Source: an uncultured Kiritimatiellota bacterium
GTDB taxonomy: Bacteria; Verrucomicrobiota; Kiritimatiellia; RFP12; DVOR01
NCBI GenBank assembly: GCA_944389945.1
Contig: CALXOF010000001.1
Location: 3,016 to 67,015 of the forward strand
Reading direction: 5' to 3'
DNA: 64,000 nt
The translations under genes and the position numbers were made by a program. Below are positions 1,057 through 59,919 of this stretch, piece by piece (position 1 is the stretch's first letter; the number at the start of each line of letters is the position of its first letter). The notes below the pieces were generated by a model. It did not search any database. It was not told the DNA's origin and was given only the letters and a program-made list of their open reading frames with translations.

Positions 1057-2325
1057 ATGGCCAAAGATCTTCCACCCATCCTGCGTCAATACGACCGCCT
1101 CATCGCTGTCGGCGTCTTGGCTGCCGTCGCAATCTCCTTGATTTACCTTGTTGTCTTCGGCATCAAGGCCAGGGACGATGAGGAGAAATTCAAGACCAGC
1201 GTCGCCGCGCCGGACAGCGAGGTGAAGCCCCTCGAGGACTTCTCCGCCCTCTCTGCGGCAATCGCCGCCGTTGGCAAGCCCGATCGTGCCTCCACCCTCA
1301 AGGTGCGCGCCTCCGCCGCGGAGCCCGACCTCTTCACCCCCGAGCGCCGCGTCTTCTGCATCAAGTGCGCCAGCCCCATCACCTTCGAGGGCGAGGACCG
1401 CGACGAGGCGCAGAAGTGCTCCATCTGCGGTGCCGATCAGCCCGTCAAGGAGAAGATCGACTACACCACCGTCGACAGCGACGAAGACGGCCTGCCCGAT
1501 GTCTGGGAGACCGCCAACAAGCTCGACCCCAACGACCCCGCCGACGCCGATGCCGACAACGACAGCGACGGCTTCACCAACATCCAGGAATACCAGGCCA
1601 AGACCGACCCCAACGACCCCAAGAGCCACCCCTCCTACGATGGCTTCCTCCGCGTGGGCGAAATCACCGGCACCAAGGTCCCCCTGCGCATCATCAACGC
1701 CATGCGCCTCCCCGATGAGACGGGCGCCGACGGCAAGCCGAACCAGGCCTACCGCGTGACCTTCGTCTCCGTCGCCGAAGACGGCACCCCCGGCACCGCG
1801 AACATCGTCGCCAAGACCGGCAAGCCCGTCTACAAGAGCAAGGGCGTCATCGAGACCAGTTCCGCAATCGGCAAGAGCGGTTTCTCTATCGTCAGCTACA
1901 ACCGTGTGGACAAGAAGCCCATCAAGGTTGGTCCGCATGGCACCACGCAGCTGATTGAGGTCTCCACCGCCGTTGTCAAGCGCGACTCCGATGGCAAGAC
2001 CGCCACCCTCACCCACTGGGATAGGAACAACCCTGATTGGCCCGGCGAGCCCCTCCTCGAGCAGAAGGTCGAGCTTTCCTGCGAGCTCTCCGGCGTTGAG
2101 CCCGCCACCCTCATCGAAGGCGGCACCTACCGCGTCAAGAGCGACACCTACGTCGTCAAGAAGATCAATCCCGACGCCAAGACCGTCACCCTGGTGCATC
2201 GCGCGGATAAGCGCGAGGTCGTCGTCGGCGAGTCTGGGCCGGTCGCGGCCGCCGCCAAGCCTGCGGCCGCCAAGCCCACCCCGGCCCCGGCCGCGGCTCA
2301 GCCTTCGGGAGGTCAGAAGAAATGA
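1057..2325 (+). CDS. Membrane-anchored protein with Cys4 zinc-ribbon (CIKC...CSIC) and thrombospondin-type-3/dockerin-like Ca-binding repeats (DSDEDGLPDVWE, DNDSDGFTNIQE)
   Basis: N-terminal TM helix 'LIAVGVLAAVAISLIYLVVFGI'. CxxC...CxxC motif. Repeated DxDxDGxxDxxE motifs. Ala/Pro-rich C-terminus. Coupled to the upstream gene. Confidence 0.6.
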   Translation: MAKDLPPILRQYDRLIAVGVLAAVAISLIYLVVFGIKARDDEEKFKTSVAAPDSEVKPLEDFSALSAAIAAVGKPDRASTLKVRASAAEPDLFTPERRVFCIKCASPITFEGEDRDEAQKCSICGADQPVKEKIDYTTVDSDEDGLPDVWETANKLDPNDPADADADNDSDGFTNIQEYQAKTDPNDPKSHPSYDGFLRVGEITGTKVPLRIINAMRLPDETGADGKPNQAYRVTFVSVAEDGTPGTANIVAKTGKPVYKSKGVIETSSAIGKSGFSIVSYNRVDKKPIKVGPHGTTQLIEVSTAVVKRDSDGKTATLTHWDRNNPDWPGEPLLEQKVELSCELSGVEPATLIEGGTYRVKSDTYVVKKINPDAKTVTLVHRADKREVVVGESGPVAAAAKPAAAKPTPAPAAAQPSGGQKK

Positions 2326-2557: not shown

Positions 2558-5500
2558 ATGACACACTTTGTGCGCTATGCAATGGTCGGCGTGATGGTCG
2601 CCGGGGCGTCTTACTGCGCCCACGCGCAAGAAGATGACCTCGATGCGCTCTTGAGCGATTTGCTCGCCGAAGAGTCCGCCGTCGAGCAGGAGGAGCCTCA
2701 GGCCGAGCCGGCCCCTGAGGTCCCCGCCGAGCCCGAGGTCGCCGAACTTCCCGAGGCTCCCGCGCCAGAGGTCTTGGACGACGTGCCCGCGCCCGTTGTG
2801 GAAGCGGCCGACGAAGTGGCTGGGGAGGCGTTGGATGCCGCCCTCGACACGCTCGTCGATGAAGCCGAGACCCCCGCCGAGCCCGAAGTGCCCGCCCCTG
2901 TCGAGGAAGTCGCCGAGGTGGCCGAGGAGCCCGCGCCTGAGGTGCCCGCCCCCGCCCCCGTTGAGGAGGCCGTCGCTGAGGTGGTCGAGGAGCCCGCGCC
3001 CGAAGTCCCCGCCGAGGAAGTCGCCGAGATCCCCGCTGAGGTGCCTGCGCCTGAAGTTCCTGCCGAGGAAGTCGCTGAGGTTCCCGCTGAGGAGCCTGCG
3101 CCTGCCGCCCAAGCCGACGAAGCGGCTGGTGCTTTGCTGGCAGGTGTCGATGCCGAAGCCCCCGCCGTTGAGCTCTCCGAAGAGGACAAGGCTTTCAACG
3201 AACTCGAGGCGCTCATGCGCCTCAAGAATCTGGGCCTCGACAACCACGCCAAGGCTTGCCTCAACCGAGCCCGTGAAATCATGAGCACGCCGCCCGAGCC
3301 CGGCAAGGCCATGGATCACTACAAGGCCGCCATCAAGATGTACACCGACGCCAAGGAGTACTTCCGCGAGCTCGAGGCCAACCTCCCCCTCAAGGATGAG
3401 TGCGACCGCGGCATCCGCGAGGCTCGCTACCGTCAGGCCTTCTCCCTCTTCGCCAACGACAAGGATTACGGCGCCGCCCTCAACCTCGCCCAGCAGGTGC
3501 AGCGCGAAGGTCACCCCAAGGCCGCCGCCCTCATCGCCGCCATCAACGCTGAGGTCAATCGTCCGCCGGAAATCCGTCCCACCCCCGTTCTCCCCGAGTT
3601 CGCTCAAGAGGATTACCAGCAGGCCCGCCTCGACGTGATGGAGCGTTACAAGCGCGCCACCGTCTACTACCACCTCGCCAAGTACAAAGAGGCCATCGAC
3701 CAGCTCGACCTCATCCTCCGCGATGACCCCAACAACGAGGATGCCATCAGCCTCCGCGAGCGCATCGCCAAGCGCAAAGATAGCCGCGACCGTCAGCTCC
3801 AGGCCTCCACCCACGCCGAGATGATCGACCAGGTCTCCTTCAACTGGACCCCTGTCGGCGCTCTCGCCCGTGACTCCGAGGAGCTCTACGCGCCCACCGT
3901 CTCCACCGGTACCGCCGCCCCCGTCGACGAGCAGGGCCAGCGCGACGAGCAGGCCGTCATCGCCAAGCTCCAGTACATCCGCCTCCCCGAGTTCTCCATT
4001 CGCCCGCCGAGCACCCTCGCCGACGCCGTGCAGATGTTCGCCGAGATGTCCCGCACCTATGACCGTCCCGAGCTTCCTCCGGAAGAGCGCGGCCTCTCCT
4101 TCGTGCTGAACATGAACTCCGGCGCCCCCACTCCCGCCGCCGACGTCGAGGCCGATCCCTTCGCCACCACCGACACTTCCGCCTCCAGCGGCCTGCCGCC
4201 CATCCAGAACATCAGCCTCACCTGGGTCACCCTCAAAGAGGCGCTCGACATGGTCTGCATGGTCACCAACACCAAGTACATCGTCCGCGGCAAGAACGTC
4301 ATCGTCGTTCCCAACACCTTCGTTGAAGGTGAGATGGAGACCCGCACCTACAACGTCATGGGCGACCTGATGGACAAGGTCAGCGGCGTCCAGGCCGACC
4401 TCCAGGCCTCCTCCGACTTCGGTTCCTCCTCCGGCGACGACTGGGGTAGCATGGACACTGCCTCCCTCTCCTCCGGCGGCGGCTCCGCCACCCCCGATCA
4501 GCTGAAGAGCTTCTTCCAGGAGCTCGGCGTGCCCTTCGAGGGCGATGCGCGCATCGTTTACCTCCCCACCATCGGTAAGCTCCGCGTCACCAACACCGCC
4601 CAGAACCTCGCCATCTTCGAAGGCATCCTCGAAGAGCTCAACGTCACCCCCTATCAGATCGAGGTTGAGGCTCGCTTCGTCGAAGTCAGCCAGGAAGACC
4701 TCAACTCCCTCGGCTTCGAGTGGCAGCTCAATAGCGACATCGTCGGCACCATCGGTTCCGGCATCGACTGGGCTGACAGCGCCATCACCGGCAACCCCTC
4801 CGGCGGTTCTGGTGCGGGCGGCATCGGCGCCACCGGTGACCACGTCTTCCGTCCCGGCTCCATCAGCGGTACCGGCGATGGCAACGTTGCCATCCACGGA
4901 GGCTCCTTCAACAACGGCATGCGCTTCCTCGGTGACTCCTCCACCTACGCCAACCGCATCAACTTGAGCGGCGCCACCCTCGCCCCCAACGACGAGTTCC
5001 TCGGCTTCTCCGCCGTCTTCGGCCAGATGGATGTCTCCCTCATCCTCCATATGCTCGCCCAGCGCACCGACACCGACATGCTCTCCAGCCCGAAGGTGCT
5101 CGCCCGCCCGAACGAAGAGGCCCTCATCCGCGTCGTGACCGAGTGGATTTACCCCACCGAGTTCGACGTCACCGAGCTCGACAACGACGACAACAACGAC
5201 AACAACAACAACTGGGGCATCGGCAACGGCGGCACCACCGTCCAGGCCCCGCCCGTCAAGTTCGCCGTTGAGCCTCAGTCCTTCGAGAAGCAGGATGTCG
5301 GTGTCTCCCTCCAGGTCATCCCGCAGGTCTCCCAGGAAGGCCAGATGATCAACCTCACCGTCGCCCCCAAGGTCGTGGAATATCTCGGCGACTTCGAGTA
5401 CGGCATGCAGGTCCCCTACGTGCAGTACGGCATGACCGGTGGCGTCGTCACCTCCGCCGAGGTCGAGTACTACCAGGTCTCCATGCCTCAGCCCATGTTC

Positions 5501-5809
5501 CACTTCCGCGAGATCAACACCTCCCTCTCCGTCTACAACGGCTCCACCGTGGTCATGGGCGGTTTGATCACCGAGAACCGCAACTCCTTCGAGGATAAGA
5601 TTCCGATTCTGGGTGACCTGCCCTTCATCGGCTTCCTCTTCCGCTCCACCGGTGAGTACAGCGAGAAGCGCAACCTCCTCGTCTTCCTCACCGCCCGCCT
5701 CGTCGATCCCGCCGGCCGTCCCCTCAAGACCGCCACCGATGGTCGCATGGGTGCCGGCGCCATGAACACCAGCGCCTCCGACACCATGTCCTCCACCGTC
5801 CAGCCCTAA
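2558..5809 (+). CDS. Giant secretin (GspD/PilQ family) with N-terminal acidic PEVPA-type repeat region and TPR-like segment
   Basis: Signal peptide 'MVGVMVAGASYCAHA'. Approx. 2690-3120 encodes tandem (E/A)P(A/E)PEVPA repeats. TPR-like 'YYHLAKYKEAIDQLDLIL'. C-terminal secretin domain motifs 'VVMGGLITE...IPILGDLPFIGFLFRS...NLLVFLTARLV'. Confidence 0.85.
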   Translation: MTHFVRYAMVGVMVAGASYCAHAQEDDLDALLSDLLAEESAVEQEEPQAEPAPEVPAEPEVAELPEAPAPEVLDDVPAPVVEAADEVAGEALDAALDTLVDEAETPAEPEVPAPVEEVAEVAEEPAPEVPAPAPVEEAVAEVVEEPAPEVPAEEVAEIPAEVPAPEVPAEEVAEVPAEEPAPAAQADEAAGALLAGVDAEAPAVELSEEDKAFNELEALMRLKNLGLDNHAKACLNRAREIMSTPPEPGKAMDHYKAAIKMYTDAKEYFRELEANLPLKDECDRGIREARYRQAFSLFANDKDYGAALNLAQQVQREGHPKAAALIAAINAEVNRPPEIRPTPVLPEFAQEDYQQARLDVMERYKRATVYYHLAKYKEAIDQLDLILRDDPNNEDAISLRERIAKRKDSRDRQLQASTHAEMIDQVSFNWTPVGALARDSEELYAPTVSTGTAAPVDEQGQRDEQAVIAKLQYIRLPEFSIRPPSTLADAVQMFAEMSRTYDRPELPPEERGLSFVLNMNSGAPTPAADVEADPFATTDTSASSGLPPIQNISLTWVTLKEALDMVCMVTNTKYIVRGKNVIVVPNTFVEGEMETRTYNVMGDLMDKVSGVQADLQASSDFGSSSGDDWGSMDTASLSSGGGSATPDQLKSFFQELGVPFEGDARIVYLPTIGKLRVTNTAQNLAIFEGILEELNVTPYQIEVEARFVEVSQEDLNSLGFEWQLNSDIVGTIGSGIDWADSAITGNPSGGSGAGGIGATGDHVFRPGSISGTGDGNVAIHGGSFNNGMRFLGDSSTYANRINLSGATLAPNDEFLGFSAVFGQMDVSLILHMLAQRTDTDMLSSPKVLARPNEEALIRVVTEWIYPTEFDVTELDNDDNNDNNNNWGIGNGGTTVQAPPVKFAVEPQSFEKQDVGVSLQVIPQVSQEGQMINLTVAPKVVEYLGDFEYGMQVPYVQYGMTGGVVTSAEVEYYQVSMPQPMFHFREINTSLSVYNGSTVVMGGLITENRNSFEDKIPILGDLPFIGFLFRSTGEYSEKRNLLVFLTARLVDPAGRPLKTATDGRMGAGAMNTSASDTMSSTVQP

Positions 5810-13885: not shown

Positions 13886-15463
13886 ATGGAAGAAGAGAAA
13901 ATTGCACAGGGAACCTATAACTTCCGCAATATGCGGGAGGATGGCTATCGCTATGTGGACAAGACAGCAGTGCTCTATCCGCTTGTCACGCGCGGGCGAG
14001 ATTCCTTCTTTTTCATCTCCCGTCCGCGGCGCTTCGGCAAGTCGCTGATGCTCTCCACCTTGGAGTGCCTCTTCCGCGGCGAGCGCGACCTCTTCAAGGG
14101 CCTCGCCATCGACAAGATGGACTATGACTGGAAATCTTATCCTATCCTCCACTTCAATTTCGCGGGGCTCAAGGTAGAGACGCTCGAGACCTTCAAGATT
14201 GACTTTCGCAGTTACGTCAAGGAGACGTTGACCAAGGCCGGATGTACATGGAATGAAGCGGACTTCCCCGGCGCCAACTTCAGCCGAGCCATTAACACGC
14301 TGGCGGAAGCCTCGGAACAGAAGTCGGTGGTTATCCTCATCGACGAGTACGACGCGCCCGTTGGCCACGCACTGAACGATATCAAAAAGACCGAAGCCAT
14401 TCGGCAAGAACTGTCGGATTTCTACATCCAAATCAAGAACAATGTCGGCGCCATCCGCTTCATGCTGATGACCGGCGTCACGCGGTTCACTCAGCTCTCC
14501 GTCTTCTCGGCCCTCAACAATCTCACCGACCTCACGATGGACGAGCGCTATGCCACGCTTCTCGGCTACACCGATGAGGAGTTGGAGGCCAACTTCAGTA
14601 AGACGCTGCACCGCCATGCCGAGGTCATGGGGCTCTCCTATGAAGATTACCGCGAAAAACTCCGCTGGTGGTTCAACGGCTACCGTTTCTCTCCGGATTG
14701 TGAGGATAAAGTTTACAATCCCTATGCCATTGGGCAAACCCTTGGCGCATTGAAGCGTCGCTTCGTCGGCACCTGGATCCGTTCCGGCACGACCTCCACC
14801 GTCGTCAACTATTTCGCGAATAACCAACTCGCCGAACAGGATTACGAAAACGTTGAGGATATCTCCGAGGAGGATTTGGACGTTTGCGGGCTGAAGAACA
14901 TCCTTCCCATCGCCATGCTCTACCAAAGCGGCTACCTCACCATCAAAGATTTCCAAGACGGTGTCTTCACCCTCGGCATCCCGGACGAAGAGGTCCGCCG
15001 CGCCTTCAACTCGCAACTCGTTCAGAAATTCGCCGAGAAAGATGGGGATCAGTACCGTAACGCCACCTGCCGGGCCTTGAAACAGGCCGACTTCGATACC
15101 TTCTTCGGCAACCTCTCCGACCTCTACGCCCATCTCACTTACGGCTCCAAAGAAAAACGCGTGCAGGAATTCTCCTTCCAGCGTATCCTCTACGTTCTGC
15201 TGACTTCCAGCGGCTTCTTCCGTGTCACCGCCGAAGACCGGCAGTCCCACGGCCGCGCAGACTTGGTCGCCGAGACCCCCGAACGCGTCTTTGTCTTCGA
15301 GTTGAAAGTCGATGGCACGCCCCAAGAGGCCCTTGCCCAAATCAAAGAAAAAGGCTACGCCGAGCCCTATCGCCACTCCGGCAAGGAAGTCCACCTCATC
15401 GGCCTTTCCTTCGACGGCCAAACCCGCCGCCTCACCGGCACCGTCGCCGAGCCGTTGGCCTGA
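13886..15463 (+). CDS. AAA-ATPase-like (PF09820) / PD-(D/E)xK nuclease (PF08011) family protein
   Basis: 'YVDKTAVLYPLV...FFISRPRRFGKSLMLSTLECLF' N-terminal hallmark. About 525 aa. Preceded by TATACT -10 and an AAGGAG Shine-Dalgarno. Confidence 0.8.
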   Translation: MEEEKIAQGTYNFRNMREDGYRYVDKTAVLYPLVTRGRDSFFFISRPRRFGKSLMLSTLECLFRGERDLFKGLAIDKMDYDWKSYPILHFNFAGLKVETLETFKIDFRSYVKETLTKAGCTWNEADFPGANFSRAINTLAEASEQKSVVILIDEYDAPVGHALNDIKKTEAIRQELSDFYIQIKNNVGAIRFMLMTGVTRFTQLSVFSALNNLTDLTMDERYATLLGYTDEELEANFSKTLHRHAEVMGLSYEDYREKLRWWFNGYRFSPDCEDKVYNPYAIGQTLGALKRRFVGTWIRSGTTSTVVNYFANNQLAEQDYENVEDISEEDLDVCGLKNILPIAMLYQSGYLTIKDFQDGVFTLGIPDEEVRRAFNSQLVQKFAEKDGDQYRNATCRALKQADFDTFFGNLSDLYAHLTYGSKEKRVQEFSFQRILYVLLTSSGFFRVTAEDRQSHGRADLVAETPERVFVFELKVDGTPQEALAQIKEKGYAEPYRHSGKEVHLIGLSFDGQTRRLTGTVAEPLA

Positions 15464-33906: not shown

Positions 33907-34602
33907 TTAGGCCACGCGGCGGCGGAGGGCCACGCCGGCCACGCCAAGGGCGAGCAACGCCAAGGCCGTCGGCTCGGGGACGGAAGGATCCGGGTCGGGT
34001 TCCGGCAGGACAGCGGTCATCTGGGCGACCATGCGATCAATCTCCTCTTGGGTGAGGATGCCTTCATAGGCCGCCGTCTCATTGATGGTCCAGGCATCGT
34101 TCGCGAAGGTGGAGACAATGATATTTTCGGACGTGTTCGTATCCAAGACGGAGAAGAGCTGCACACCATTCGCGTAGCCGGTGATGGTGGCTTGATTGTT
34201 CGCGTTGCGCTCAATCGTGATGGTGAGCAGGTATTTCGTACCGACCGAAAGGGTTGGGGTATTGCTTGTGGTTCCCCAGCCAGTCTCAGAACCACCCTTC
34301 TTTTCCACGCCGATATGGCCATTGAGGGCATTCCCGGAGCCATACATATAGGCATAGGCGTGTCCGGCATCCCAGAGGCCGAGATCTGCGATGGCGGCTT
34401 GTTCTGTGCTGGCAGCCGTCGCATTCGCGGTCACCACCATGGCATAGGAGAGCGTTTTGGTGGAGGTAGAACCTTCCGTGGCGAAGTATTTATCGGTGTA
34501 GATGCTGTTCTCGGCTCCGGTTTGCCACTGCATGGTGACAGCCTGGGCGGAGAGGGCGAGGCCGGCGGCGGCACAAGCCAAGGCAAAACGTACGCATTTC
34601 AT
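33907..34602 (-). CDS. PEP-CTERM sorting-domain secreted protein
   Basis: Start at Met160 of track ORF 33907..35079 ('MKCVRFALACAAAGLALSAQA'). PEP-CTERM tail. G8 tract at 34680-34687 upstream. Confidence 0.8.
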   Translation of the reverse strand: MKCVRFALACAAAGLALSAQAVTMQWQTGAENSIYTDKYFATEGSTSTKTLSYAMVVTANATAASTEQAAIADLGLWDAGHAYAYMYGSGNALNGHIGVEKKGGSETGWGTTSNTPTLSVGTKYLLTITIERNANNQATITGYANGVQLFSVLDTNTSENIIVSTFANDAWTINETAAYEGILTQEEIDRMVAQMTAVLPEPDPDPSVPEPTALALLALGVAGVALRRRVA

Positions 34603-34768
34603 GGGTGTGTCCTTCGTCCCACGGGGGGCAGGACATCTGCCCGATTCACATGGAACGCCATTAAGATAGCACAAGTGACGGGGGGGGCAAGTGTTATTTA
34701 TTGTGTCAAGGCGCAACAAGGGAAGATTGGGGGCTTGGAAGGTTGGTTTCAAGCGGAGAATGGCAAAG

Positions 34769-34797
34769 AAAAAGCCCCGCGGGGGCGGGGCTTTTTG
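34769..34797 (-). terminator. Terminator after PEP-CTERM gene
   Basis: aaaaagccccgcgggggcggggcttttt. Confidence 0.65.
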
Positions 34798-34813
34798 GGG
34801 GATGGGCGGGGGC

Positions 34814-35491
34814 TTAGGCCACGCGGCGGCGGAGGGCCACGCCGGCCACGCCGAGGGCGAGCAACGCCAGGGCGGTCGGCTCAGGGATGTTGGTCGGCAT
34901 AATCGCGGATCCCGCGTCAACCAGCTTGGTGATCTCATCCGTGGTGAGGGTGCCATCATAAGTGGCCGCATCGTTGAAGGTCCACGCGGCATTGTTGGCG
35001 AAGGTCGCCGTGAGGGCGCCATCGGTGGGCTCAAGGATGGGATTGGCGTTGCCATTGAACGTAATTGGGGTCGTCCCATTGTTGATATAGAGCGTCACGT
35101 TCCAACGGTTGTTGGTGGAATCCCAGGTGCCATTGATCACCACGATGTGCGAGCCGGACGCAAGCGAACTATTGTTGTCCGTCCAAGTCGTAGCGTTAGA
35201 AGTCGTACTGTCGAAGTGGGCGCCAAAGCCATTCGCGGCGGAATAGGCCAAGAGACCGACAGCAGTGTCATCTCGCGTGGAGGTCCCGAAGGTCACCATG
35301 CTGGAGTTCTCGAGAGACTGGCCGGAGAAGGTCGTCGTGATCTTCACGGCGAGGGCGAAGTCGGCCTTCGCGTCACTCGAGCCGAAGATTTCCTGCGAGC
35401 CAGGGACGGTCGTGCTGCTCCAGGTCATATTCGCGGCGGAGGCAACCGTCGCCAGGCCAAGGGCCGCAATCAATCCAAGACAACGTTTCAT
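34814..35491 (-). CDS. PEP-CTERM sorting-domain secreted protein (LamG-like)
   Basis: Signal peptide 'MKRCLGLIAALGLATVASA'. PEP-CTERM tail. TTGACG-N18-TATTAT promoter with a G9 spacer tract (plus-strand C9 at 35573-35581). Confidence 0.85.
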   Translation of the reverse strand: MKRCLGLIAALGLATVASAANMTWSSTTVPGSQEIFGSSDAKADFALAVKITTTFSGQSLENSSMVTFGTSTRDDTAVGLLAYSAANGFGAHFDSTTSNATTWTDNNSSLASGSHIVVINGTWDSTNNRWNVTLYINNGTTPITFNGNANPILEPTDGALTATFANNAAWTFNDAATYDGTLTTDEITKLVDAGSAIMPTNIPEPTALALLALGVAGVALRRRVA

Positions 35492-54563: not shown

Positions 54564-55892
54564 TTAGTGAAGTTTGTAACGAAGTCGCAACGGAAGCTCG
54601 CGCTTGGCATCTTCGTTACCATTCTTCGCACTTTCATAAAGCCACGTTTCTGCCAATTCCCGAGATTGAGGAACGCCCCATCCCATCTTGTAGCACTCCG
54701 ATAATTCATATTGGGCCCTGGCATGGTCTTGATTTGCGGCTTTTTGGAACCACTCTGCCGCGACTTTGCGGTCGCGTTCAACGCCATCGCCGACCTTATA
54801 TCGGATTCCAAGCGTAAATTGCGCATCGGCGTTCCCGGCGTCTGCGCTCTCCCGCAAATACGTCACTTGTTCCTCTGGCGTTCCTTCATCCCATTGCCCT
54901 TTAGCAAGCAATGCACCAAGGCAACCCTGCGCGACGTAATCCCCCTGTTGGGCGAGCGCTTCCACCCATGTAAGGACGAGTGGGAACTGCTGTAGGTCAG
55001 ACGAGGACATCTCCGTCACTCTATCAATCAACGCCTGCTTGGCCGTTTCATCGCCTTGTTTGGCGGCGGAGAGGAGATAACGAGTCGCGGTCTCTTGTGA
55101 GAGAGGAAGGTCTTCCCCTTGCGCGAGCTTGATAGCGACGCGGGCTTGGGCCGCGGTATTGTCGTTTTGGGCGGCGGCGAGGAGCCAGTCGCTGGCCTCC
55201 GGGTGTTTTGCCAGGGCCTCATCGCCGGCGGCGATGCGCCTGCCGAGGAGGATACGTGCCATAAGCATATCCTTCATGTTGAGCAACCATGCCGAAGGAA
55301 GTTCTTCCGGGCTAGGTTCCCATTGCTGGCGATAGGCCATGGCGATCAGTTGCCGTTGAGCATCCAGTCGACCCCGAACGGCGGCCATGCGATACCATGC
55401 CGCGGCCTCCTTGTAGGAGCGCGGCACAGTGAGATAATTGTTCGTGTAAACCGCGTTGTAGCGCGACTGAGAGCTAGACCCATTCAGGTAGGTCGTGGCG
55501 ACCCAGATTATCAGATCGGTCGAACCGACGTCGGCGAGTCTCTGCTTGGCCGCCTCGAAAACGAGCTTCGCCGACACTTTGCTTGCCACAAGGCAATCGG
55601 AGAACGCGTCCCCATGCAAGGGGCAGTTCTCTATCTGTGCGGCGGGTGCGACGCCCAGACCGAAGTCTTTGCAGAGGGTTAGACGACAAGCCACGCTCGC
55701 TTTCACGGCGTCATTGTCGCGGCGTGCCGCCTCTTGATAATACGCGTAGGCTTGGCCCCAGTCGCCCGCTTGCAATGCCGCATTGCCCTTGTCAAAGAAC
55801 TGCTCGGCGCGATATTCGCGAAGTTTCAGATAACCGACGGGGGCCGCAATCAGCGCCACCACTTCAATACCGAACAAGATTTTCGAAAGCAT
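54564..55892 (-). CDS. Membrane-anchored Sel1-like repeat (SLR/TPR) protein
   Basis: N-terminal TM helix 'ILFGIEVVALIAAPVGY'. Multiple Sel1 repeats ('AQFTLGIRYKVGDGVERDRKVAAEWFQKAANQDHARAQYELSECYKMGWGVPQS'). Confidence 0.75.
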   Translation of the reverse strand: MLSKILFGIEVVALIAAPVGYLKLREYRAEQFFDKGNAALQAGDWGQAYAYYQEAARRDNDAVKASVACRLTLCKDFGLGVAPAAQIENCPLHGDAFSDCLVASKVSAKLVFEAAKQRLADVGSTDLIIWVATTYLNGSSSQSRYNAVYTNNYLTVPRSYKEAAAWYRMAAVRGRLDAQRQLIAMAYRQQWEPSPEELPSAWLLNMKDMLMARILLGRRIAAGDEALAKHPEASDWLLAAAQNDNTAAQARVAIKLAQGEDLPLSQETATRYLLSAAKQGDETAKQALIDRVTEMSSSDLQQFPLVLTWVEALAQQGDYVAQGCLGALLAKGQWDEGTPEEQVTYLRESADAGNADAQFTLGIRYKVGDGVERDRKVAAEWFQKAANQDHARAQYELSECYKMGWGVPQSRELAETWLYESAKNGNEDAKRELPLRLRYKLH

Positions 55893-55902
55893 GGCCGCCT
55901 CC

Positions 55903-57120
55903 TTACGCGAGGACCCAAACCACGGCCCAAGCCGCGACGGCGGCCACGCCGCCCAACGTGGAGAGCGTCGCCCAGACGCGTTTGGAACGGCGTTCGTCCA
56001 GGATGGACTGCTTGGTCTTAAGCAGTTTCGTGATGGCTTCCTGTTTCCATCCCGCGGCCCGTGAGGTCGGCGCGGTCAAGGCCTTGAGCGCTTCGACGGT
56101 CTTATCGATGGCAGGAAGGATCTGCGGCTTACGTACCTCCGCGATGGTGGGTCGCAGGGTCTTGCACAAGGTTTCAGCGAAATTACACTCGTCGTCTGTG
56201 GTGGCGATGCCATCGTCGCTCTCACCCGAAGCTTCCAAGAACCAATGCAAACGCAAGGTTTCGGTTGCTGCACGGCAGGCACGCAAAGTCTCCTTAAGCA
56301 CATTAAAATCACTTTGTCGAAGCTCTTGGCAGAAAAGTCGGACCCGTGAGACAAAGGCTTTACGCGTCTGCCGACAGGCCGCGATGGCCTGTTGTACCAC
56401 CGGCGTATCCACCAAGCACCGGAGCATCAGATTATCCATGCCGATGGTCGTGTCGGCCGTGCCAAGGGCCGAGACCGCAAGCACGTCCAGATTCGGATAG
56501 TTCCCCGCAATCAAGGGTAGGTGCTGCGCCACGAAGGCGCGCGGGTCCAGCTCCACCGTGTCGGGGCTGAGATAGCGGTCAATCTGCGTGAGGAGCAGGG
56601 TCACCTTCGGGTGCGTGTGGAGACGGAAGAGGAAGTCCAGGCACGCGTTCGTCACCCACACCGCGTCCAAGTTACTCGGGGTTGTCTCCAGATTCTCCGC
56701 GTCCGCCAGATTGAAGAGCACGAAGACTTGGTCGGACTGCGTCAGGTGGCCCAAGAAGGCATCCAATTCCTCTTGGTTCGCGGCAATACGCTCCGAGAAG
56801 GAGACGGGATCCTGGTTGTCCACCTCATCCAAGAAGGCCAAGCGATAAATCTCGCCCGGATAGTCCAGGATGTCGCAGGTGCGCTGGGGCTTGCCGCCAT
56901 AGCACGCACTCCAGGCCAGGCGCCGCAAACTCGTGGTCTGGTGCGGCAACGACTCCCCTTCCAGTTGCTCCGGGAGCAACGTCAGGAAGCGGAAGGCCTC
57001 ACGCGTCTCCGGTCGCAACGACCATCCCGTCCGCTCATGCGCCTTGAAGGTCTTGACCAACGCCATCGTCAGCACCGACTTACCGGAGCCCTCAACGCCC
57101 AAAAAGGTAATGTTTCCCAT
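55903..57120 (-). CDS. Tail-anchored Ras-like small GTPase (TRAFAC class) of unknown function
   Basis: G1 'GVEGSGKS', G3 'DYPGE', G4-like 'LLTQID', G5 'VSALG'. About 180-aa helical region, then a C-terminal TM helix 'TLGGVAAVAAWAVVWVLA'. 10-nt gap to the Sel1 gene. Confidence 0.6.
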   Translation of the reverse strand: MGNITFLGVEGSGKSVLTMALVKTFKAHERTGWSLRPETREAFRFLTLLPEQLEGESLPHQTTSLRRLAWSACYGGKPQRTCDILDYPGEIYRLAFLDEVDNQDPVSFSERIAANQEELDAFLGHLTQSDQVFVLFNLADAENLETTPSNLDAVWVTNACLDFLFRLHTHPKVTLLLTQIDRYLSPDTVELDPRAFVAQHLPLIAGNYPNLDVLAVSALGTADTTIGMDNLMLRCLVDTPVVQQAIAACRQTRKAFVSRVRLFCQELRQSDFNVLKETLRACRAATETLRLHWFLEASGESDDGIATTDDECNFAETLCKTLRPTIAEVRKPQILPAIDKTVEALKALTAPTSRAAGWKQEAITKLLKTKQSILDERRSKRVWATLSTLGGVAAVAAWAVVWVLA

Positions 57121-57456: not shown

Positions 57457-58707
57457 GTGGGCATTATGGCGACGTTCAGTTACGTGGCGCTGAATAAACA
57501 AAAGGCGAAGGTGTCGGGGGCGATAGAGGCCGCCGACCGGCGGGGTGCACTCGCGTCGCTGAAGGGGCAGGGGTTGATGCCGCTCTCCATCACGGAGGAA
57601 CAGGGCGCGAAGAAGGCGTCGCAGACGCAGGCTTCGTTTTGGAAGCTTTCGTCGGGCCCGGCGAAGAAGATGAAGCCGGGCGAAGTGTTGCTCTTTACCT
57701 CCGAGCTGGCAGACCTGATTGAGGCCGGCATGACGTTGGGGGCGGCGCTGAACTCCTTGGCGAACCAGGGCGACCCGAACAGCGGCATCTGCGTGGTTGC
57801 GGCTGATTTGCGCGACCGGATTATGCGCGGCGAGGCCTTCTCGGACGCGGTGGGGGCGCACCCGGATACCTTCCCGGCGATTTATGGCAACATGGTGCGC
57901 GCGGGCGAGGCCTCGGGCGCGATGGTGGAGGTGTTGCGGCGTCTGGGCGAGCACTACGAGCGCAACCAGTCGATGCGGAGCAAGATTATCTCGGCGCTGA
58001 CCTATCCGTGCATTGTGTTGGGTATGGGCGTGCTGGCGGTGATCTTTGCGATGGTCAAGATCGTGCCGCAGTTCACGGAGCTTTTCTCGAGCATGGGCAA
58101 GGAGCTGCCTTTGCCGACGCGGATGCTGATGGGGATGAGCGAGGGGCTCATCAAGTATGGCGTCTTCATCGGCATCGGGCTGGTCTTTGGCGTCGTCGCC
58201 CTGCGGAAGTGGTGCAAGGGCGCGGGGCGCGCGCGGTGGGACCGCTTCAAGCTTCGGATGCCGTTGGTGAAGGGCTTGGTGGCGAGCGGGGCGTACGCGT
58301 CGCTGGCCTATACGTTGCAGACGCTCTTGGCCAACGGCGTGAACGTGCTTCAGGCGCTGCGCATCTCCGAGGAGACCTGCGGCAACGCCGTGATCGAGGC
58401 CGAGTTGCGCAAGGCTCGCGAACGCGTGACCGACGGCACCACCATCTCCGGTCCGCTGGCGCAGAGCGGCGTCTTCCCGCGCTTGATGACCGACATGATG
58501 GCCCTGGGCGAGCAGACGGGCAACCTGCCCGGCGCCCTTGGCCGCATCGGCAAGCGTTATGAGGCCGAGCTTAATCGCAACATCAAGATTTTCACCACCG
58601 CCTTGGAGCCCATCTTGATTCTCTTGGTGGCGCTGGTGGTGGGTTTCGTGGCCATCGCCATCCTCTCGGCGGTCTTCTCCGCCACCTCGGCGATGGGCCA
58701 GGCCTAA
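57457..58707 (+). CDS. GspF/PilC-family inner-membrane platform protein (T2SS/T4P)
   Basis: Two T2SSF domains. 'FSYVALNKQKAKVSG...' N-terminus typical of GspF. Three TM segments. Start may be Met4, at 57466. Confidence 0.85.
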   Translation: MGIMATFSYVALNKQKAKVSGAIEAADRRGALASLKGQGLMPLSITEEQGAKKASQTQASFWKLSSGPAKKMKPGEVLLFTSELADLIEAGMTLGAALNSLANQGDPNSGICVVAADLRDRIMRGEAFSDAVGAHPDTFPAIYGNMVRAGEASGAMVEVLRRLGEHYERNQSMRSKIISALTYPCIVLGMGVLAVIFAMVKIVPQFTELFSSMGKELPLPTRMLMGMSEGLIKYGVFIGIGLVFGVVALRKWCKGAGRARWDRFKLRMPLVKGLVASGAYASLAYTLQTLLANGVNVLQALRISEETCGNAVIEAELRKARERVTDGTTISGPLAQSGVFPRLMTDMMALGEQTGNLPGALGRIGKRYEAELNRNIKIFTTALEPILILLVALVVGFVAIAILSAVFSATSAMGQA

Positions 58708-58728: not shown

Positions 58729-59118
58729 ATGAAGGTCAAGAACCGCAAACTCCGCCGCGCAGGCTTCACCCTGGTGGAACTCCTGCTCGTGATCACCATT
58801 CTGGGCATCCTCGGCACCGTGGTGGTGATGAACTTCGGTGATGTGGGTGGCGATGCCCGCAAGGAAACCACACGCCAGTCCATCCTGGCCATCGACCAGG
58901 CCGTGACCGTCTACAACACCAAGGTCGGCCATATGCCCAAGGACATCAGCGATCTCACTAAGCCTATCAACGATAGCAAACAAGGGTTGCTGAAGTCCAA
59001 AGATGTCAACGATGCCTGGGGCAATCCCTTCGAGTTCAAGATGGAAGACGGTTCGTACACCATCCGTTCCGCCGGCCCTGACGGCCAGATGAACACCGAA
59101 GACGACATCACGAATTGA
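58729..59118 (+). CDS. GspG-like major pseudopilin with class-III (prepilin) signal
   Basis: 'RRAGFTLVELLLVITILGILGTVVV' cleavage/methylation motif. 'DAWGNPFEFK...YTIRSAGPDGQMNTEDD' GspG-type C-terminus. Confidence 0.8.
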   Translation: MKVKNRKLRRAGFTLVELLLVITILGILGTVVVMNFGDVGGDARKETTRQSILAIDQAVTVYNTKVGHMPKDISDLTKPINDSKQGLLKSKDVNDAWGNPFEFKMEDGSYTIRSAGPDGQMNTEDDITN

Positions 59119-59127
59119 GGACCGGCC

Positions 59128-59559
59128 ATGAAGCGAATCTTTGCCTTGTTTTGCCTTGTCGCAGTGGGTGCCTCCATCGGGTGCGATGGAGAGTCGTCCT
59201 CTGCGGACAAGGACGCCCAATTCAAAGAGGACGTCCACACTATCGCGGACTTTATTCGGGCCAATGAGGAAAGAAGCGATGAGATGGCCTCGCAAGCTCG
59301 CGTGGAGACAACGGGTAAAGCCATTGAAGCCCTCGACCAGGCCGTTCTTATCTATCAAATCAAAGTCGGGCGCTTGCCTATGAGTCTTCGTGATCTCACC
59401 AAGGGCATCAACGACGACGACGAGGGCCTGCTGAAGTCCAACGACGTCATCGACGCTTGGGGCAATCCCTTCGAGTACAAGGTGGACGGTAAGAAGTACA
59501 CCATCCGCTCCGCCGGCCCCGACGGCCAGATGAACACCGAAGACGACATCACGAACTGA
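59128..59559 (+). CDS. GspG-like globular domain fused to a lipoprotein signal peptide (paralog 2)
   Basis: 'MKRIFALFCLVAVGASIGC' lipobox replaces the prepilin helix. C-terminal 90 aa are about 70% identical to the upstream pseudopilin ('DAWGNPFEYKVDGKKYTIRSAGPDGQMNTEDDITN'). Confidence 0.7.
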   Translation: MKRIFALFCLVAVGASIGCDGESSSADKDAQFKEDVHTIADFIRANEERSDEMASQARVETTGKAIEALDQAVLIYQIKVGRLPMSLRDLTKGINDDDEGLLKSNDVIDAWGNPFEYKVDGKKYTIRSAGPDGQMNTEDDITN

Positions 59560-59568
59560 GGACTAGCA

Positions 59569-59913
59569 ATGAAGCGGATTTTGGGCTTGCTTTGCCTTCT
59601 TACCGTGGGCGCCTCCATCGGGTGCAATGGCGATGATTTGGACACGGCCGTCCGTAAGGAGACCACGCGCCAGACTATCGCCGCCATCGATTTCGCCATC
59701 TCTACCTATAAAGCCAAGAACAACAAGGTGCCCACGAGCCTGACTGATTTGGCCGTAGGTGTCGCCGGAGAGCAACCGCTTGTGAGTGCGGAGATGTTCA
59801 ACGATGCCTGGGGTAATCCCTTGGAGCTCTCGGTCAATGCGGCGATGAAGTACACCATTCGCTCCGCCGGCCCCGATGGCAAGATGAACACCGAGGACGA
59901 CATCACGAACTGA
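59569..59913 (+). CDS. GspG-like globular domain fused to a lipoprotein signal peptide (paralog 3)
   Basis: 'MKRILGLLCLLTVGASIGC'. 'NDAWGNPLELSVNAAMKYTIRSAGPDGKMNTEDDITN'. Confidence 0.7.
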   Translation: MKRILGLLCLLTVGASIGCNGDDLDTAVRKETTRQTIAAIDFAISTYKAKNNKVPTSLTDLAVGVAGEQPLVSAEMFNDAWGNPLELSVNAAMKYTIRSAGPDGKMNTEDDITN

Positions 59914-59919
59914 GGCATC

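What the first reader, a model, noticed from the sequence alone, without database searches (positions are those of the whole stretch)
58729..59913. Tandem GspG-like trio in which two paralogs replaced the prepilin leader/helix with a lipoprotein signal
Gene 1 is a canonical pseudopilin (FTLVELL... class-III signal). Genes 2 and 3 keep the GspG globular C-terminus with near-identical final 20 aa ('YTIRSAGPDGQMNTEDDITN') but begin with 'L..VGASIGC' lipoboxes. A lipid-anchored pilin head domain cannot be polymerised by the GspF/GspE machinery. These may act as periplasmic decoys or caps, regulators of pseudopilus assembly, or a distinct lipoprotein family recruited from pilins.
Basis: seen in the sequence. 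Interest (0 to 1): 0.65.

Follow-up and report, generated by a model that had tools for sequence, protein, structure and literature searches.

The report
Lipid-anchored copies of a pseudopilin head
Next to the gene for the filament subunit of a type II secretion-like machine, a gut Kiritimatiellae bacterium carries two extra copies in which the part needed to build the filament has been swapped for a lipoprotein anchor. These copies are recent, kept by selection, part of a fast-changing gene array, and of unknown role.

Summary
Three same-frame tandem genes follow gspF.

- **g1 (58729-59118)** is a canonical prepilin-type GspG.
- **g2 (59128-59559) and g3 (59569-59913)** keep the GspG head: Pfam T2SSG, an AF2 model closest to EHEC and Vibrio GspG, and an intact Ca2+ loop. 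They start with MKR-hydrophobic-SIGC lipoprotein signals.
- **No upstream start is possible.** The previous gene's stop lies 9 nt upstream in frame.

New findings:

- The closest species (flanking proteins 97-99% identical) have only g1 at this locus.
- Related strains carry 1-4 copies, including a third type with an uncleaved transmembrane anchor.
- A second Kiritimatiellae lineage has a lipoprotein copy with an unrelated signal peptide at the same locus.
- g3 is under strong purifying selection (dN/dS 0.1-0.2), while g1 alleles are swapped by recombination.
- Among the 150 best cluster representatives, about 30 carry credible lipoboxes and only 31 a prepilin motif. The search profile favoured non-prepilin forms, so this is not a frequency.

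Best reading: membrane-tethered GspG heads that cannot polymerise, co-expressed with the pseudopilin. Their role is inferred only, most likely accessory or modulating. I found no description of them in the searched literature.

The parts
57457..58707 (+). gspF (inner-membrane platform protein); first gene of the transcription unit that carries the trio
   Evidence: Pfam T2SSF E 2.7e-53. TIGR02120 GspF scores 346 bits, below its 424-bit cut-off. Gene callers on public contigs start it at 57466, giving 413 aa.
58729..59118 (+). g1: canonical prepilin-type GspG-like major pseudopilin. Leader M1-G12 (58729-58764), then mature FTLVELL...
   Evidence: N_methyl and T2SSG in Pfam. TIGR01710 scores 58 bits, below its 88.85-bit cut-off. 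It is the only GspG at this locus in the closest species. Its alleles are highly divergent between strains with near-identical flanks.
59117..59127 (+). 9-nt spacer with GAGGA ribosome-binding site overlapping the g1 stop (TGAGGACCGGCC ATG)
   Evidence: Read in the sequence. The same stop-plus-GAGGA junction recurs before g3.
59128..59559 (+). g2: lipoprotein-type GspG head with a long tether. Signal peptide aa 1-18 (59128-59181) and lipobox Cys19 codon 59182-59184. An acidic linker of about 35 aa follows, then alpha1C, the head and the Ca2+ loop.
   Evidence: T2SSG only in Pfam. AF2 model: residues 1-24 disordered, a low-confidence helix at 25-48, and the head at pLDDT above 90. Orthologues are 66-96% identical, all with CD at +1/+2. 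dN/dS is 0.37-0.64 and the gene is mosaic.
59569..59913 (+). g3: minimal lipoprotein-type GspG head. Signal peptide aa 1-18 and lipobox Cys19 codon 59623-59625. The alpha1C helix starts about 2 residues after the Cys.
   Evidence: T2SSG only in Pfam. AF2 model: pLDDT 78 overall, helix H21-51 plus three strands. Best Foldseek matches are GspG/EpsG structures 3g20, 4lw9 and 3gn9. dN/dS is 0.10-0.20.
59052..59120 (+). 69-nt conserved 3' block (Ca2+ loop, stop, GAGG), copy 1. Copies 2 and 3 are at 59493-59561 and 59847-59915.
   Evidence: the repeat finder family D1, 91-94% identity.
59055..59192 (+). 138-nt duplication junction (3' end of the head, spacer, lipoprotein signal). The second copy is at 59496-59633.
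   Evidence: the repeat finder family D2, 87% identity. It shows that g2 and g3 arose from each other by a tandem duplication that included the signal peptide.

Best explanation
g2 and g3 are recent tandem duplicates of the major pseudopilin gene g1. In both, the class III (prepilin) leader and the hydrophobic alpha1N helix have been exchanged for a Sec/signal-peptidase-II lipoprotein signal.

**Shown here**
- Paralogy to g1, with the GspG head fold and the Ca2+ ligands retained.
- A lipobox that is invariant across orthologues.
- No alternative start codon.
- Purifying selection on both copies.
- Operon-like packing with gspF and g1.
- An ancestral single-copy state at this locus.
- Copy number of 1-4 among close relatives, with a transmembrane-anchored variant.
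- A lipoprotein copy with an unrelated signal peptide at the same locus in a second lineage.

**Inferred**
- The products are exported by Sec, acylated on Cys19 and cleaved by LspA.
- This leaves a GspG head tethered to a periplasm-facing membrane leaflet. In g3 the tether is only about 2 residues before alpha1C, which reproduces the geometry of an unassembled pilin at the inner membrane. In g2 the tether is an acidic stalk of about 35 residues.
- Without the G|F cleavage/methylation site, Glu5 and alpha1N, the heads cannot be processed by prepilin peptidase, extracted by the GspE/F motor or packed in the filament core.
- They therefore act outside the filament, as tethered heads that engage a conserved partner of the pseudopilin head. 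Candidate partners are periplasmic parts of the assembly platform or secretin, g1 itself, or cargo. The effect would be to modulate assembly or cargo docking.

The conserved-partner idea rests on one contrast. g3 stays nearly invariant while the co-resident g1 allele is replaced wholesale.

**Confidence.** The stated value of 0.55 blends two parts: about 0.85 for the structural and evolutionary description, and about 0.3 for the functional role.
For: **Domain and fold**
- Pfam and NCBIfam domain content.
- Alignment of the three paralogues.
- AF2 models of g3 and g2.
- Foldseek best matches are GspG/EpsG crystal structures.
- In the PDB profile alignment the Ca2+ loop matches EHEC GspG. The positions equivalent to OutG/PulG ligands D117, T122, D124 and D125 (PMC13081927) are D, T, D and D in all three proteins.

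**Signal peptide and start codon**
- Lipobox S16, I17, G18 and C19 are invariant in 10 sequences.
- An in-frame stop lies 9 nt upstream of each ATG.
- A GAGGA ribosome-binding site precedes each gene, and no + strand terminator-like site lies between gspF and the downstream PRK gene.

**Selection and diversity**
- dN/dS is 0.10-0.20 for g3 and 0.37-0.64 for g2.
- Window versus L050: g1 dN 0.304, g3 dN 0.004, PRK dN 0.001.

**Evolutionary history**
- Sister species have gspF, a single GspG, then PRK, with flanking proteins up to 97-99% identical.
- Locus variants carry 1-4 copies, including TM-anchored P0056 and P0061.
- In L052 (GspF 77% identical), a lipoprotein copy with an unrelated signal peptide groups with its own g1.
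- In an unrelated contig a lipobox-T2SSG gene sits directly upstream of a canonical GspG (L057).
Against: - **Processing is untested.** Lipidation and LspA cleavage were not tested. The h-region ends in V-G-A|S, which also fits signal peptidase I, so the product could be soluble and periplasmic.
- **No partner was identified.** No multimer modelling or experiment was possible, so the functional half of the statement is inference.
- **Some relatives sit away from T2SS genes.** Three of five other lipobox-T2SSG genes examined are not next to T2SS genes on their (short) contigs. The head can therefore work outside a T2SS context.
- **g2 is less constrained.** It evolves faster and is mosaic, which fits relaxed constraint as well as it fits a function.
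- **Close relatives do without the copies**, so they are dispensable for the machine.
- **Sorting rules are unknown.** The rules at the +2 residue have not been established for Kiritimatiellae, so inner versus outer membrane cannot be decided.
Confidence: 0.55

Rival explanations
1. Decoy or surface-display reading. The tethered heads are exposed on the cell surface, on vesicles, or after T2SS-dependent lipoprotein export. There they mimic the pilin head and soak up whatever drives the hypervariability of g1, such as pilus-specific phages or host antibodies.
For: - g1 alleles are replaced between strains whose flanking genes are nearly identical (window versus L050: g1 dN 0.30, PRK dN 0.001). 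This pattern is typical of exposed, selected pilins.
- Copy number and composition of the array vary between close strains.
- Some g2-slot genes carry a head 80% identical to the resident g1 (L046).
- The residues just after the lipidated Cys are acidic in all three lipoprotein types (CDGESS, CNGDD, CSEEQ). From my own knowledge this resembles the Bacteroidota lipoprotein surface-export signal.
- T2SSs are known to place lipoproteins on the surface (PMC12802150 abstract).
Against: - g3 does not track g1 at all. It is 94-99% conserved while g1 differs by up to about 40% of residues.
- The g2 orthologues of L047 and L050 are near-identical although their g1 alleles differ (dN 0.21).
- The TM-anchored variants are by construction inner-membrane proteins.
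- No surface-export rule is known for this phylum.
Confidence: 0.15
2. Recombination-reservoir reading. g2 and g3 act mainly as donor cassettes for gene conversion into the expressed pilin gene, as Neisseria pilS copies (which lack the 5' constant region) do for pilE.
For: - Like pilS, the copies lack the conserved N-terminal pilin segment and lie next to the expressed gene.
- Mosaics exist: P0031-33 and L046_lipo142 combine the g2 signal and linker with a g1-like head.
- In L024 the 141-aa and 159-aa copies share an identical 35-aa C-terminus (sequences).
- The conserved 69-nt 3' blocks could serve as recombination anchors.
Against: - Each copy has its own ATG, GAGGA site and an invariant, intact signal peptide and lipobox. 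A silent donor has no need of these.
- dN/dS is well below 1 over the whole ORF.
- g3 shows no exchange with g1.
- No 5' homology block upstream of the head would close a conversion tract into g1. The 5' regions are about 36-38% identical, close to the roughly 25% expected by chance.
Confidence: 0.08
3. T2SS-independent or near-neutral reading. The GspG head is a general periplasmic module, and the copies here are young duplicates with a generic or no role. Some may already be decaying. They could even be soluble after signal peptidase I cleavage.
For: - T2SSG heads occur behind many non-prepilin N-termini. Examples are Sec signals, TM anchors, Zn-ribbon plus TM, FGE-sulfatase fusions, MotA/ExbB fusions and multi-head repeats.
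- Several lipobox-T2SSG genes are not near T2SS genes.
- The closest species lack the copies.
- g2 has a raised dN/dS.
- V-G-A|S fits signal peptidase I.
Against: - g3 has dN/dS of 0.10-0.20 with an invariant lipobox.
- The copies are packed at 6-10 nt spacing inside the gspF-g1 unit.
- The same architecture is present at the same locus in a second lineage, with an unrelated signal peptide.
- It also occurs next to a canonical GspG in an unrelated contig.
Confidence: 0.17

Closest known systems
GspG/PulG/EpsG/OutG major pseudopilin (endopilin) of type II secretion
   Same: - Same head fold by AF2 and Foldseek (3g20, 4lw9, 3gn9).
- Pfam T2SSG scores are above the gathering cut-off.
- The same Ca2+-binding loop, with the ligand positions conserved.
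- The gene lies directly after gspF.
- g1 is an ordinary member of the broad family.
   Different: - g2 and g3 lack the class III leader, the G|F cleavage/methylation site, Glu5 and the hydrophobic alpha1N. They carry a lipobox signal instead.
- None of the three proteins reaches the TIGR01710 equivalog cut-off.
- The T2SS genes are scattered: the secretin lies 53 kb away and no gspE is adjacent.
N-terminally truncated soluble pilin or pseudopilin constructs used for structure work (for example the periplasmic domains of PulG/OutG in PMC13081927)
   Same: Mature g3 would start about 2 residues before alpha1C. That is essentially the engineered 'head only' protein, which folds and binds Ca2+ on its own.
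   Different: The truncation here is natural, genetically encoded, predicted to be membrane-tethered by lipid, and kept by selection.
Neisseria pilE/pilS antigenic-variation cassettes (own knowledge)
   Same: Tandem or nearby pilin copies that lack the conserved N-terminal segment. There is evidence of exchange between copies, and the expressed pilin is hypervariable.
   Different: g2 and g3 are complete, translatable genes with their own signal peptides and are under purifying selection. g3 does not exchange with g1.
Pseudomonas aeruginosa pilin-allele islands with variable accessory genes downstream of pilA (own knowledge)
   Same: Divergent major-pilin alleles swapped among strains, with a variable accessory-gene set immediately downstream.
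   Different: The accessory genes here are pilin-head paralogues. In P. aeruginosa they are glycosyltransferases or the accessory proteins TfpW-Z.
Type V pilins of Bacteroidia (FimA/Mfa1), which are made as lipoprotein precursors (own knowledge)
   Same: Pilus-related proteins that enter the envelope by the signal peptidase II lipoprotein route.
   Different: The fold is unrelated. Type V pilins are released by proteolysis and polymerise by strand exchange. Nothing suggests that happens here.

Membership tests
Type IV pilin / pseudopilin (class III signal peptide proteins; Pfam N_methyl PF07963, TIGR02532) | Short basic leader ending in Gly, then F/M-T-L-x-E with Glu at +5 (the prepilin peptidase cleavage/methylation site) | tested here: not met
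   g1 meets it (MKVKNRKLRRAG|FTLVELL; N_methyl E 3.5e-7). g2 and g3 have no N_methyl hit and no such motif.
Type IV pilin / pseudopilin | Hydrophobic alpha1N helix of about 20 residues that anchors the subunit in the inner membrane and forms the filament core | tested here: not met
   In g2 and g3 the only hydrophobic stretch is the 12-13-residue h-region of the signal peptide, which ends in a lipobox. The AF2 helix begins at residue 21 in g3 and at 25/51 in g2, both after the Cys.
GspG major pseudopilin (Pfam T2SSG PF08334; NCBIfam TIGR01710) | T2SSG globular head domain above the Pfam gathering score | tested here: met
   g1 scores 45.5, g2 47.7 and g3 36.4 bits against a cut-off of 21. Best structural matches are GspG/EpsG crystal structures.
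GspG major pseudopilin | C-terminal calcium-binding loop with conserved Asp/Thr ligands | tested here: met
   SAGPDGxMNTEDDITN aligns to EHEC GspG SPGPDGVPNTEDDIGN. By my manual alignment the ligand positions named for OutG/PulG (D117, T122, D124, D125) are D, T, D and D in g1-g3. Binding itself was not tested.
GspG major pseudopilin | TIGR01710 equivalog score of at least 88.85 bits | tested here: not met
   g1 scores 58.0, g2 29.1 and g3 26.6 bits.
Bacterial lipoprotein (Lgt/LspA substrates; PROSITE PS51257-type signal) | Basic n-region, uncharged h-region, and lipobox [LVI..][AST..][GAS]C with the Cys at position 15-35 | tested here: met
   MKR, 12-13 hydrophobic residues, then S-I-G-C19. 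The rule as coded is met by the cluster representatives P0033 and P0012, which carry the same signal. S16, I17, G18 and C19 are invariant in 10 sequences.
Bacterial lipoprotein | Actual diacylglyceryl modification and signal peptidase II cleavage; membrane localisation | not testable with these tools
   This needs globomycin or palmitate labelling and cell fractionation. SignalP and LipoP were not available. V-G-A|S also fits signal peptidase I.
pilS-type silent pilin cassette | No start codon, ribosome-binding site or signal of its own; serves only as a recombination donor | tested here: not met
   Each gene has an ATG, a GAGGA site and an intact conserved signal peptide. dN/dS is below 1.

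The most novel reading that the evidence does not exclude
Membrane-tethered pilin heads may be a widespread, unrecognised class of accessory factors of type IV filament machines. They are anchored by lipid, or in sister variants by a transmembrane helix, and appear to arise repeatedly by swapping the class III signal for another membrane anchor. They would work outside the filament, by docking cargo through the variable alpha3-beta1 'specificity' loop or by gating the assembly platform or secretin. In this clade they form a rapidly reshuffled cassette array that retunes the machine between strains.
Probability: 0.22. Interest if true: 0.75.

Novelty: new variant of a known kind. Interest (0 to 1): 0.55.

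Why it matters
**Departure from the accepted model.** Pilins and pseudopilins are thought to work only as filament subunits, and the class III signal plus alpha1N is what defines them. Here the head domain has been detached from that module and re-anchored by lipid or by a transmembrane helix. It is kept under selection inside a gspF-gspG operon. A re-anchored copy with an unrelated signal peptide is also present at this locus in a second lineage.

**What it would imply.** If the tethered heads bind machine parts or cargo, they would be a natural handle on two open questions: how the pseudopilin head recognises its partners, and how secretion specificity is set.

**Scope.** Dozens of unrelated protein clusters combine a T2SSG head with a non-prepilin N-terminus. 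This suggests an unannotated family that current pilin finders and T2SS models ignore.

**Annotation.** Such genes are likely to be mislabelled as GspG.

Tried and rejected
1. **Upstream in-frame start restoring a prepilin N-terminus.** Rejected: the previous gene's TGA lies 9 nt upstream in the same frame.
2. **Stop-codon readthrough giving one polyprotein** (all three genes share a frame and end in TGA). Rejected: the L052 locus uses TAA stops and different frames.
3. **Silent cassette or pseudogene.** Rejected on intact signals and dN/dS.
4. **Lipoprotein signal derived in situ from the alpha1N helix** by a 15-codon deletion plus a new Cys. A gapless protein register exists (GTVVVMNFGD versus GASIGCNGDD), but DNA identity of the 5' regions is only about 22-38%. 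This can be neither shown nor excluded.
5. **Single-sequence phmmer of g2 against PDB sequences.** No hit. Only the profile and the fold search worked.
6. **JGI metagenome scan.** Returned only prepilin-type relatives, with no lipoprotein copies.
7. **GTDB species-representative scan.** Found no genome with the trio. The window's own species appears absent or masked there.
8. **Literature searches.** The terms were pseudopilin with lipobox or lipoprotein signal peptide, GspG with lipoprotein or Kiritimatiellae, PF08334, T2SSG, and 'pilin-like lipoprotein'. No description of a lipoprotein-type GspG turned up.
9. **Source names for lipobox-T2SSG clusters.** None carried an informative name.
10. 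**Co-variation of g2/g3 heads with the resident g1 allele.** Seen only in L046 and L052. It is absent for g3, L047 and L050, so allele-matched mimicry is not general.
Full report
**1. What is in the sequence**

Three ORFs lie head to tail on the + strand: g1 58729-59118 (129 aa), g2 59128-59559 (143 aa) and g3 59569-59913 (114 aa). They directly follow gspF (57457-58707; Pfam T2SSF E 2.7e-53). A PRK-family gene starts 6 nt after g3, followed by lpxC and a glycosyltransferase.

All three genes are in the same reading frame. Each is separated from the next by 9 nt in which the TGA stop overlaps a GAGGA ribosome-binding site. The in-frame codon upstream of g2 and of g3 is therefore a stop. No longer ORF can restore a prepilin N-terminus. 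No + strand terminator-like site lies between gspF and the PRK gene.

The domain content is as follows.

| Gene | N-terminus | Pfam hits |
|---|---|---|
| g1 | MKVKNRKLRRAG\|FTLVELL | N_methyl + T2SSG |
| g2 | MKRIFALFCLVAVGASIGC\|DGE | T2SSG only (E 1.8e-12) |
| g3 | MKRILGLLCLLTVGASIGC\|NGD | T2SSG only (E 5.9e-9) |

S16, I17, G18 and C19 are invariant in ten orthologues/paralogues. The signal fits the PROSITE-type lipobox rule as I coded it.

**2. The heads are real GspG heads**

An AF2 model of g3 (pLDDT 78) has the signal region disordered, one long helix at 21-51, and a three-stranded sheet. Its best Foldseek matches in the PDB are the major pseudopilins of EHEC (3g20), V. cholerae (4lw9) and V. 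vulnificus (3gn9).

In g2 the head is modelled at pLDDT above 90. An extra, low-confidence helix (25-48) is formed by the g2-specific acidic insert.

The C-terminal SAGPDGxMNTEDDITN aligns to EHEC GspG SPGPDGVPNTEDDIGN. By my manual alignment, the positions equivalent to the Ca2+ ligands D117, T122, D124 and D125 of OutG/PulG (PMC13081927) are conserved in all three proteins.

It is also a DNA-level repeat. A 69-nt block is 91-94% identical in the three genes. A 138-nt block covering the 3' end, the spacer and the signal peptide is 87% identical between the g1/g2 and g2/g3 junctions. The second block shows that g2 and g3 arose from one another by tandem duplication.

**3. Origin and population context**

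Relatives come from gut MAGs labelled Kiritimatiellaeota, Lentisphaeraceae or Candidatus Spyradenecus.

In the closest species representatives (L008-L012), GspF, PRK, LpxC and the glycosyltransferase are 80-99% identical to the window. The locus there reads gspF, one canonical GspG, then PRK. Single copy is the ancestral state.

Metagenome contigs from close strains show every intermediate form:

| Locus content | Example loci |
|---|---|
| g1 only | L008-L012 |
| g1 + a 155-aa copy | L045 |
| g1 + one lipoprotein copy | L047-49 |
| g1 + two lipoprotein copies | window, L046, L050 |
| g1 + 114-aa + 141-aa lipoprotein copies + a 159-aa copy | L024-26 |

The 155- and 159-aa proteins are a third anchor type. 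They have a Pro/Gln-rich N-terminus, a hydrophobic helix of about 30 residues with no prepilin motif, and then the head.

A more distant lineage (L052; GspF 77% identical) has gspF, g1, a 130-aa lipoprotein copy, then PRK. Its signal peptide is unrelated (MKAASILLSVALLCCLGC|SEE). Its head is closest to its own g1 (62% identity). This fits an independent conversion in that lineage, although gene conversion between neighbours could give the same pattern. That protein is a singleton cluster in 5.8 billion clusters.

**4. Selection and recombination**

| Gene | dN/dS (Nei-Gojobori) |
|---|---|
| g3 orthologues | 0.10-0.20 |
| g2 orthologues | 0.37-0.64 |
| TM-anchored pair | 0.59 |
| g1 | 0.09-0.68 |

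The locus is a recombination hotspot. The comparison between the window and L050 shows this clearly:

| Gene | dN | dS |
|---|---|---|
| PRK | 0.001 | 0.017 |
| g3 | 0.004 | 0.026 |
| GspF | 0.010 | 0.138 |
| g2 | 0.078 | 0.211 |
| g1 | 0.304 | 0.785 |

Whole g1 alleles are exchanged, and at least two allele groups occur on near-identical backgrounds.

g2-slot genes are mosaic. P0031-33 and L046_lipo142 combine the g2 signal and linker with a head 80% identical to the resident g1. By contrast, g3 forms a tight conserved clade that ignores the g1 allele.

The variable stretch of the heads appears to cover the region equivalent to the alpha3-beta1 loop. In PulG/OutG that loop determines secretion specificity (PMC13081927).

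**5. Wider distribution**

A profile of the lipoprotein copies found 2783 cluster representatives at E<=1e-3 among 1.84 billion. I classified the 150 best by my own N-terminal rules:

| N-terminus class | Count |
|---|---|
| Non-prepilin TM or signal anchor | 46 |
| Relaxed lipobox rule | 36, of which about 30 are credible because polar residues follow the Cys |
| Prepilin motif | 31 |
| Sec-like signal | 18 |
| No N-terminal hydrophobic segment | 14 |
| Fragments | 5 |

Examples of other architectures include Zn-ribbon plus TM plus head, FGE-sulfatase plus head, MotA/ExbB-like plus head, and proteins with 3-5 heads. Ten of these tested against Pfam all pass the T2SSG cut-off.

The profile lacks alpha1N, so canonical GspGs are under-ranked. 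These numbers show existence, not frequency.

I examined five further lipobox-T2SSG genes for context. Two lie next to a canonical GspG (L052, L057). Three do not, on short contigs. None of the clusters carries an informative name, and six literature searches found no description of such proteins.

**6. How it most likely works**

*Shown.* g2 and g3 are paralogues of g1 with an intact head and Ca2+ site. They have a conserved lipobox, no alternative start and operon-like packing. They are under purifying selection. The architecture is present at this locus in two lineages, with unrelated signal peptides.

*Inferred from established pilin and lipoprotein biology.*
- Sec export, Lgt acylation of Cys19 and LspA cleavage leave the head tethered to a periplasm-facing leaflet.
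- g3 has almost no linker before alpha1C. It would sit at the membrane much as an unassembled pilin does.
- g2 sits on an acidic stalk of about 35 residues.
- Both lack the peptidase site, Glu5 and alpha1N. They should therefore not be extracted by the motor or packed into the filament.

The TM-anchored variants in the same slot must be inner-membrane proteins. This hints, but no more than hints, that the family acts at the periplasmic face of the inner membrane.

g3 stays constant while g1 is replaced, so I favour a conserved partner for it: a machine component, a conserved face of g1, or cargo. I favour this over allele-matched mimicry. I commit to 'tethered, non-polymerising accessory heads that modulate assembly or cargo docking'. 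Confidence is high for the structural and evolutionary part and low (about 0.3) for the functional part.

Three rivals remain:
- a decoy or surface-display role;
- a pilS-like recombination reservoir;
- a generic, near-neutral periplasmic module, possibly soluble after signal peptidase I cleavage at VGA|S.

**7. Comparison with known systems, and verdict**

g1 is an ordinary member of the broad GspG family, although it falls below the TIGR01710 equivalog cut-off. g2 and g3 fail the two features that define a pilin, the class III signal and alpha1N. They should not be filed as pseudopilins. They are GspG-head lipoproteins.

The nearest analogues are:
- the engineered head-only constructs used for structural work;
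- pilE/pilS cassettes;
- P. aeruginosa pilin-allele islands;
- in route only, the lipoprotein-precursor type V pilins.

I rate the finding a new variant of a known kind. It is real and selected, and I found no description of it in the searched literature. It is not unique to this window, and its function is unknown. Interest 0.55.

Noticed in passing
window 58729-59118 (g1), compared with L047, L050, L009 and L024: The canonical pseudopilin is itself hypervariable. Against L050, g1 has dN 0.30 and dS 0.79, while the adjacent PRK gene has dN 0.001 and dS 0.017. At least two allele groups occur on near-identical backgrounds. This points to allelic replacement by recombination, which is unusual for a supposedly periplasmic pseudopilin.
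   Followed up: partly
L024 6001-6480 and L045 887-1354 (P0056, P0061): A third paralogue type occupies the same slot. It has a Pro/Gln-rich N-terminus (MQQSQPSPTWQQPPPPYNQDAPSP...), a non-prepilin hydrophobic helix of about 30 residues, and then the GspG head.
   Followed up: partly
window 2558-5809 (+), with 1057-2325 (+) upstream: A 1083-aa secretin (Pfam Secretin E 1e-30) lies 53 kb from the gspF-gspG operon. It is preceded by a 422-aa ORF with no Pfam match. The T2SS/T4P-like genes are scattered, and no gspE lies near gspF.
   Followed up: no
window 55903-57120 (-) and 54564-55892 (-): A 405-aa protein with a P-loop (GVEGSGKS), a C-terminal hydrophobic tail and no Pfam match sits next to a Sel1-repeat protein. 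The pair is divergently oriented just upstream of gspF and is conserved there in close relatives (L001, L002).
   Followed up: no
proteins P0108, P0124, P0156, P0174, P0181; P0091, P0093, P0112, P0193; P0103; P0244; ORF L022 4729-6294: T2SSG heads occur in several other architectures: Zn-ribbon plus TM plus head, 3-5 heads in one Sec-signal protein, FGE-sulfatase plus head, and a multi-TM MotA/ExbB-like N-terminus plus head. A 521-aa ORF in a Kofleriaceae MAG also has a weak C-terminal match (E 1e-6), and its N-terminus looks kinase-like by eye. The domain is widely reused outside pilins.
   Followed up: partly
window 13886-15463 (+); second copy just past g3's operon (L001 14178-15746, about window 63746 onward): Two paralogous genes encoding AAA-ATPase_like plus PDDEXK_9 proteins lie in the same 64-kb stretch.
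   Followed up: no
window 33907-35079 (-): A 390-aa protein ends in a PEP-CTERM sorting motif (E 1.7e-6), which implies an exosortase system in this genome.
   Followed up: no
window 59128-59559 (g2), residues 20-55: The g2-specific acidic insert (DGESSSADKDAQFKEDVHTIADFIRANEERSDEMASQA) is replaced in some strains (P0031-33) by a different, basic/Gly-rich linker (…VAKKPGARGGDDEKALQAL…). The tether itself is therefore a swapped module.
   Followed up: no
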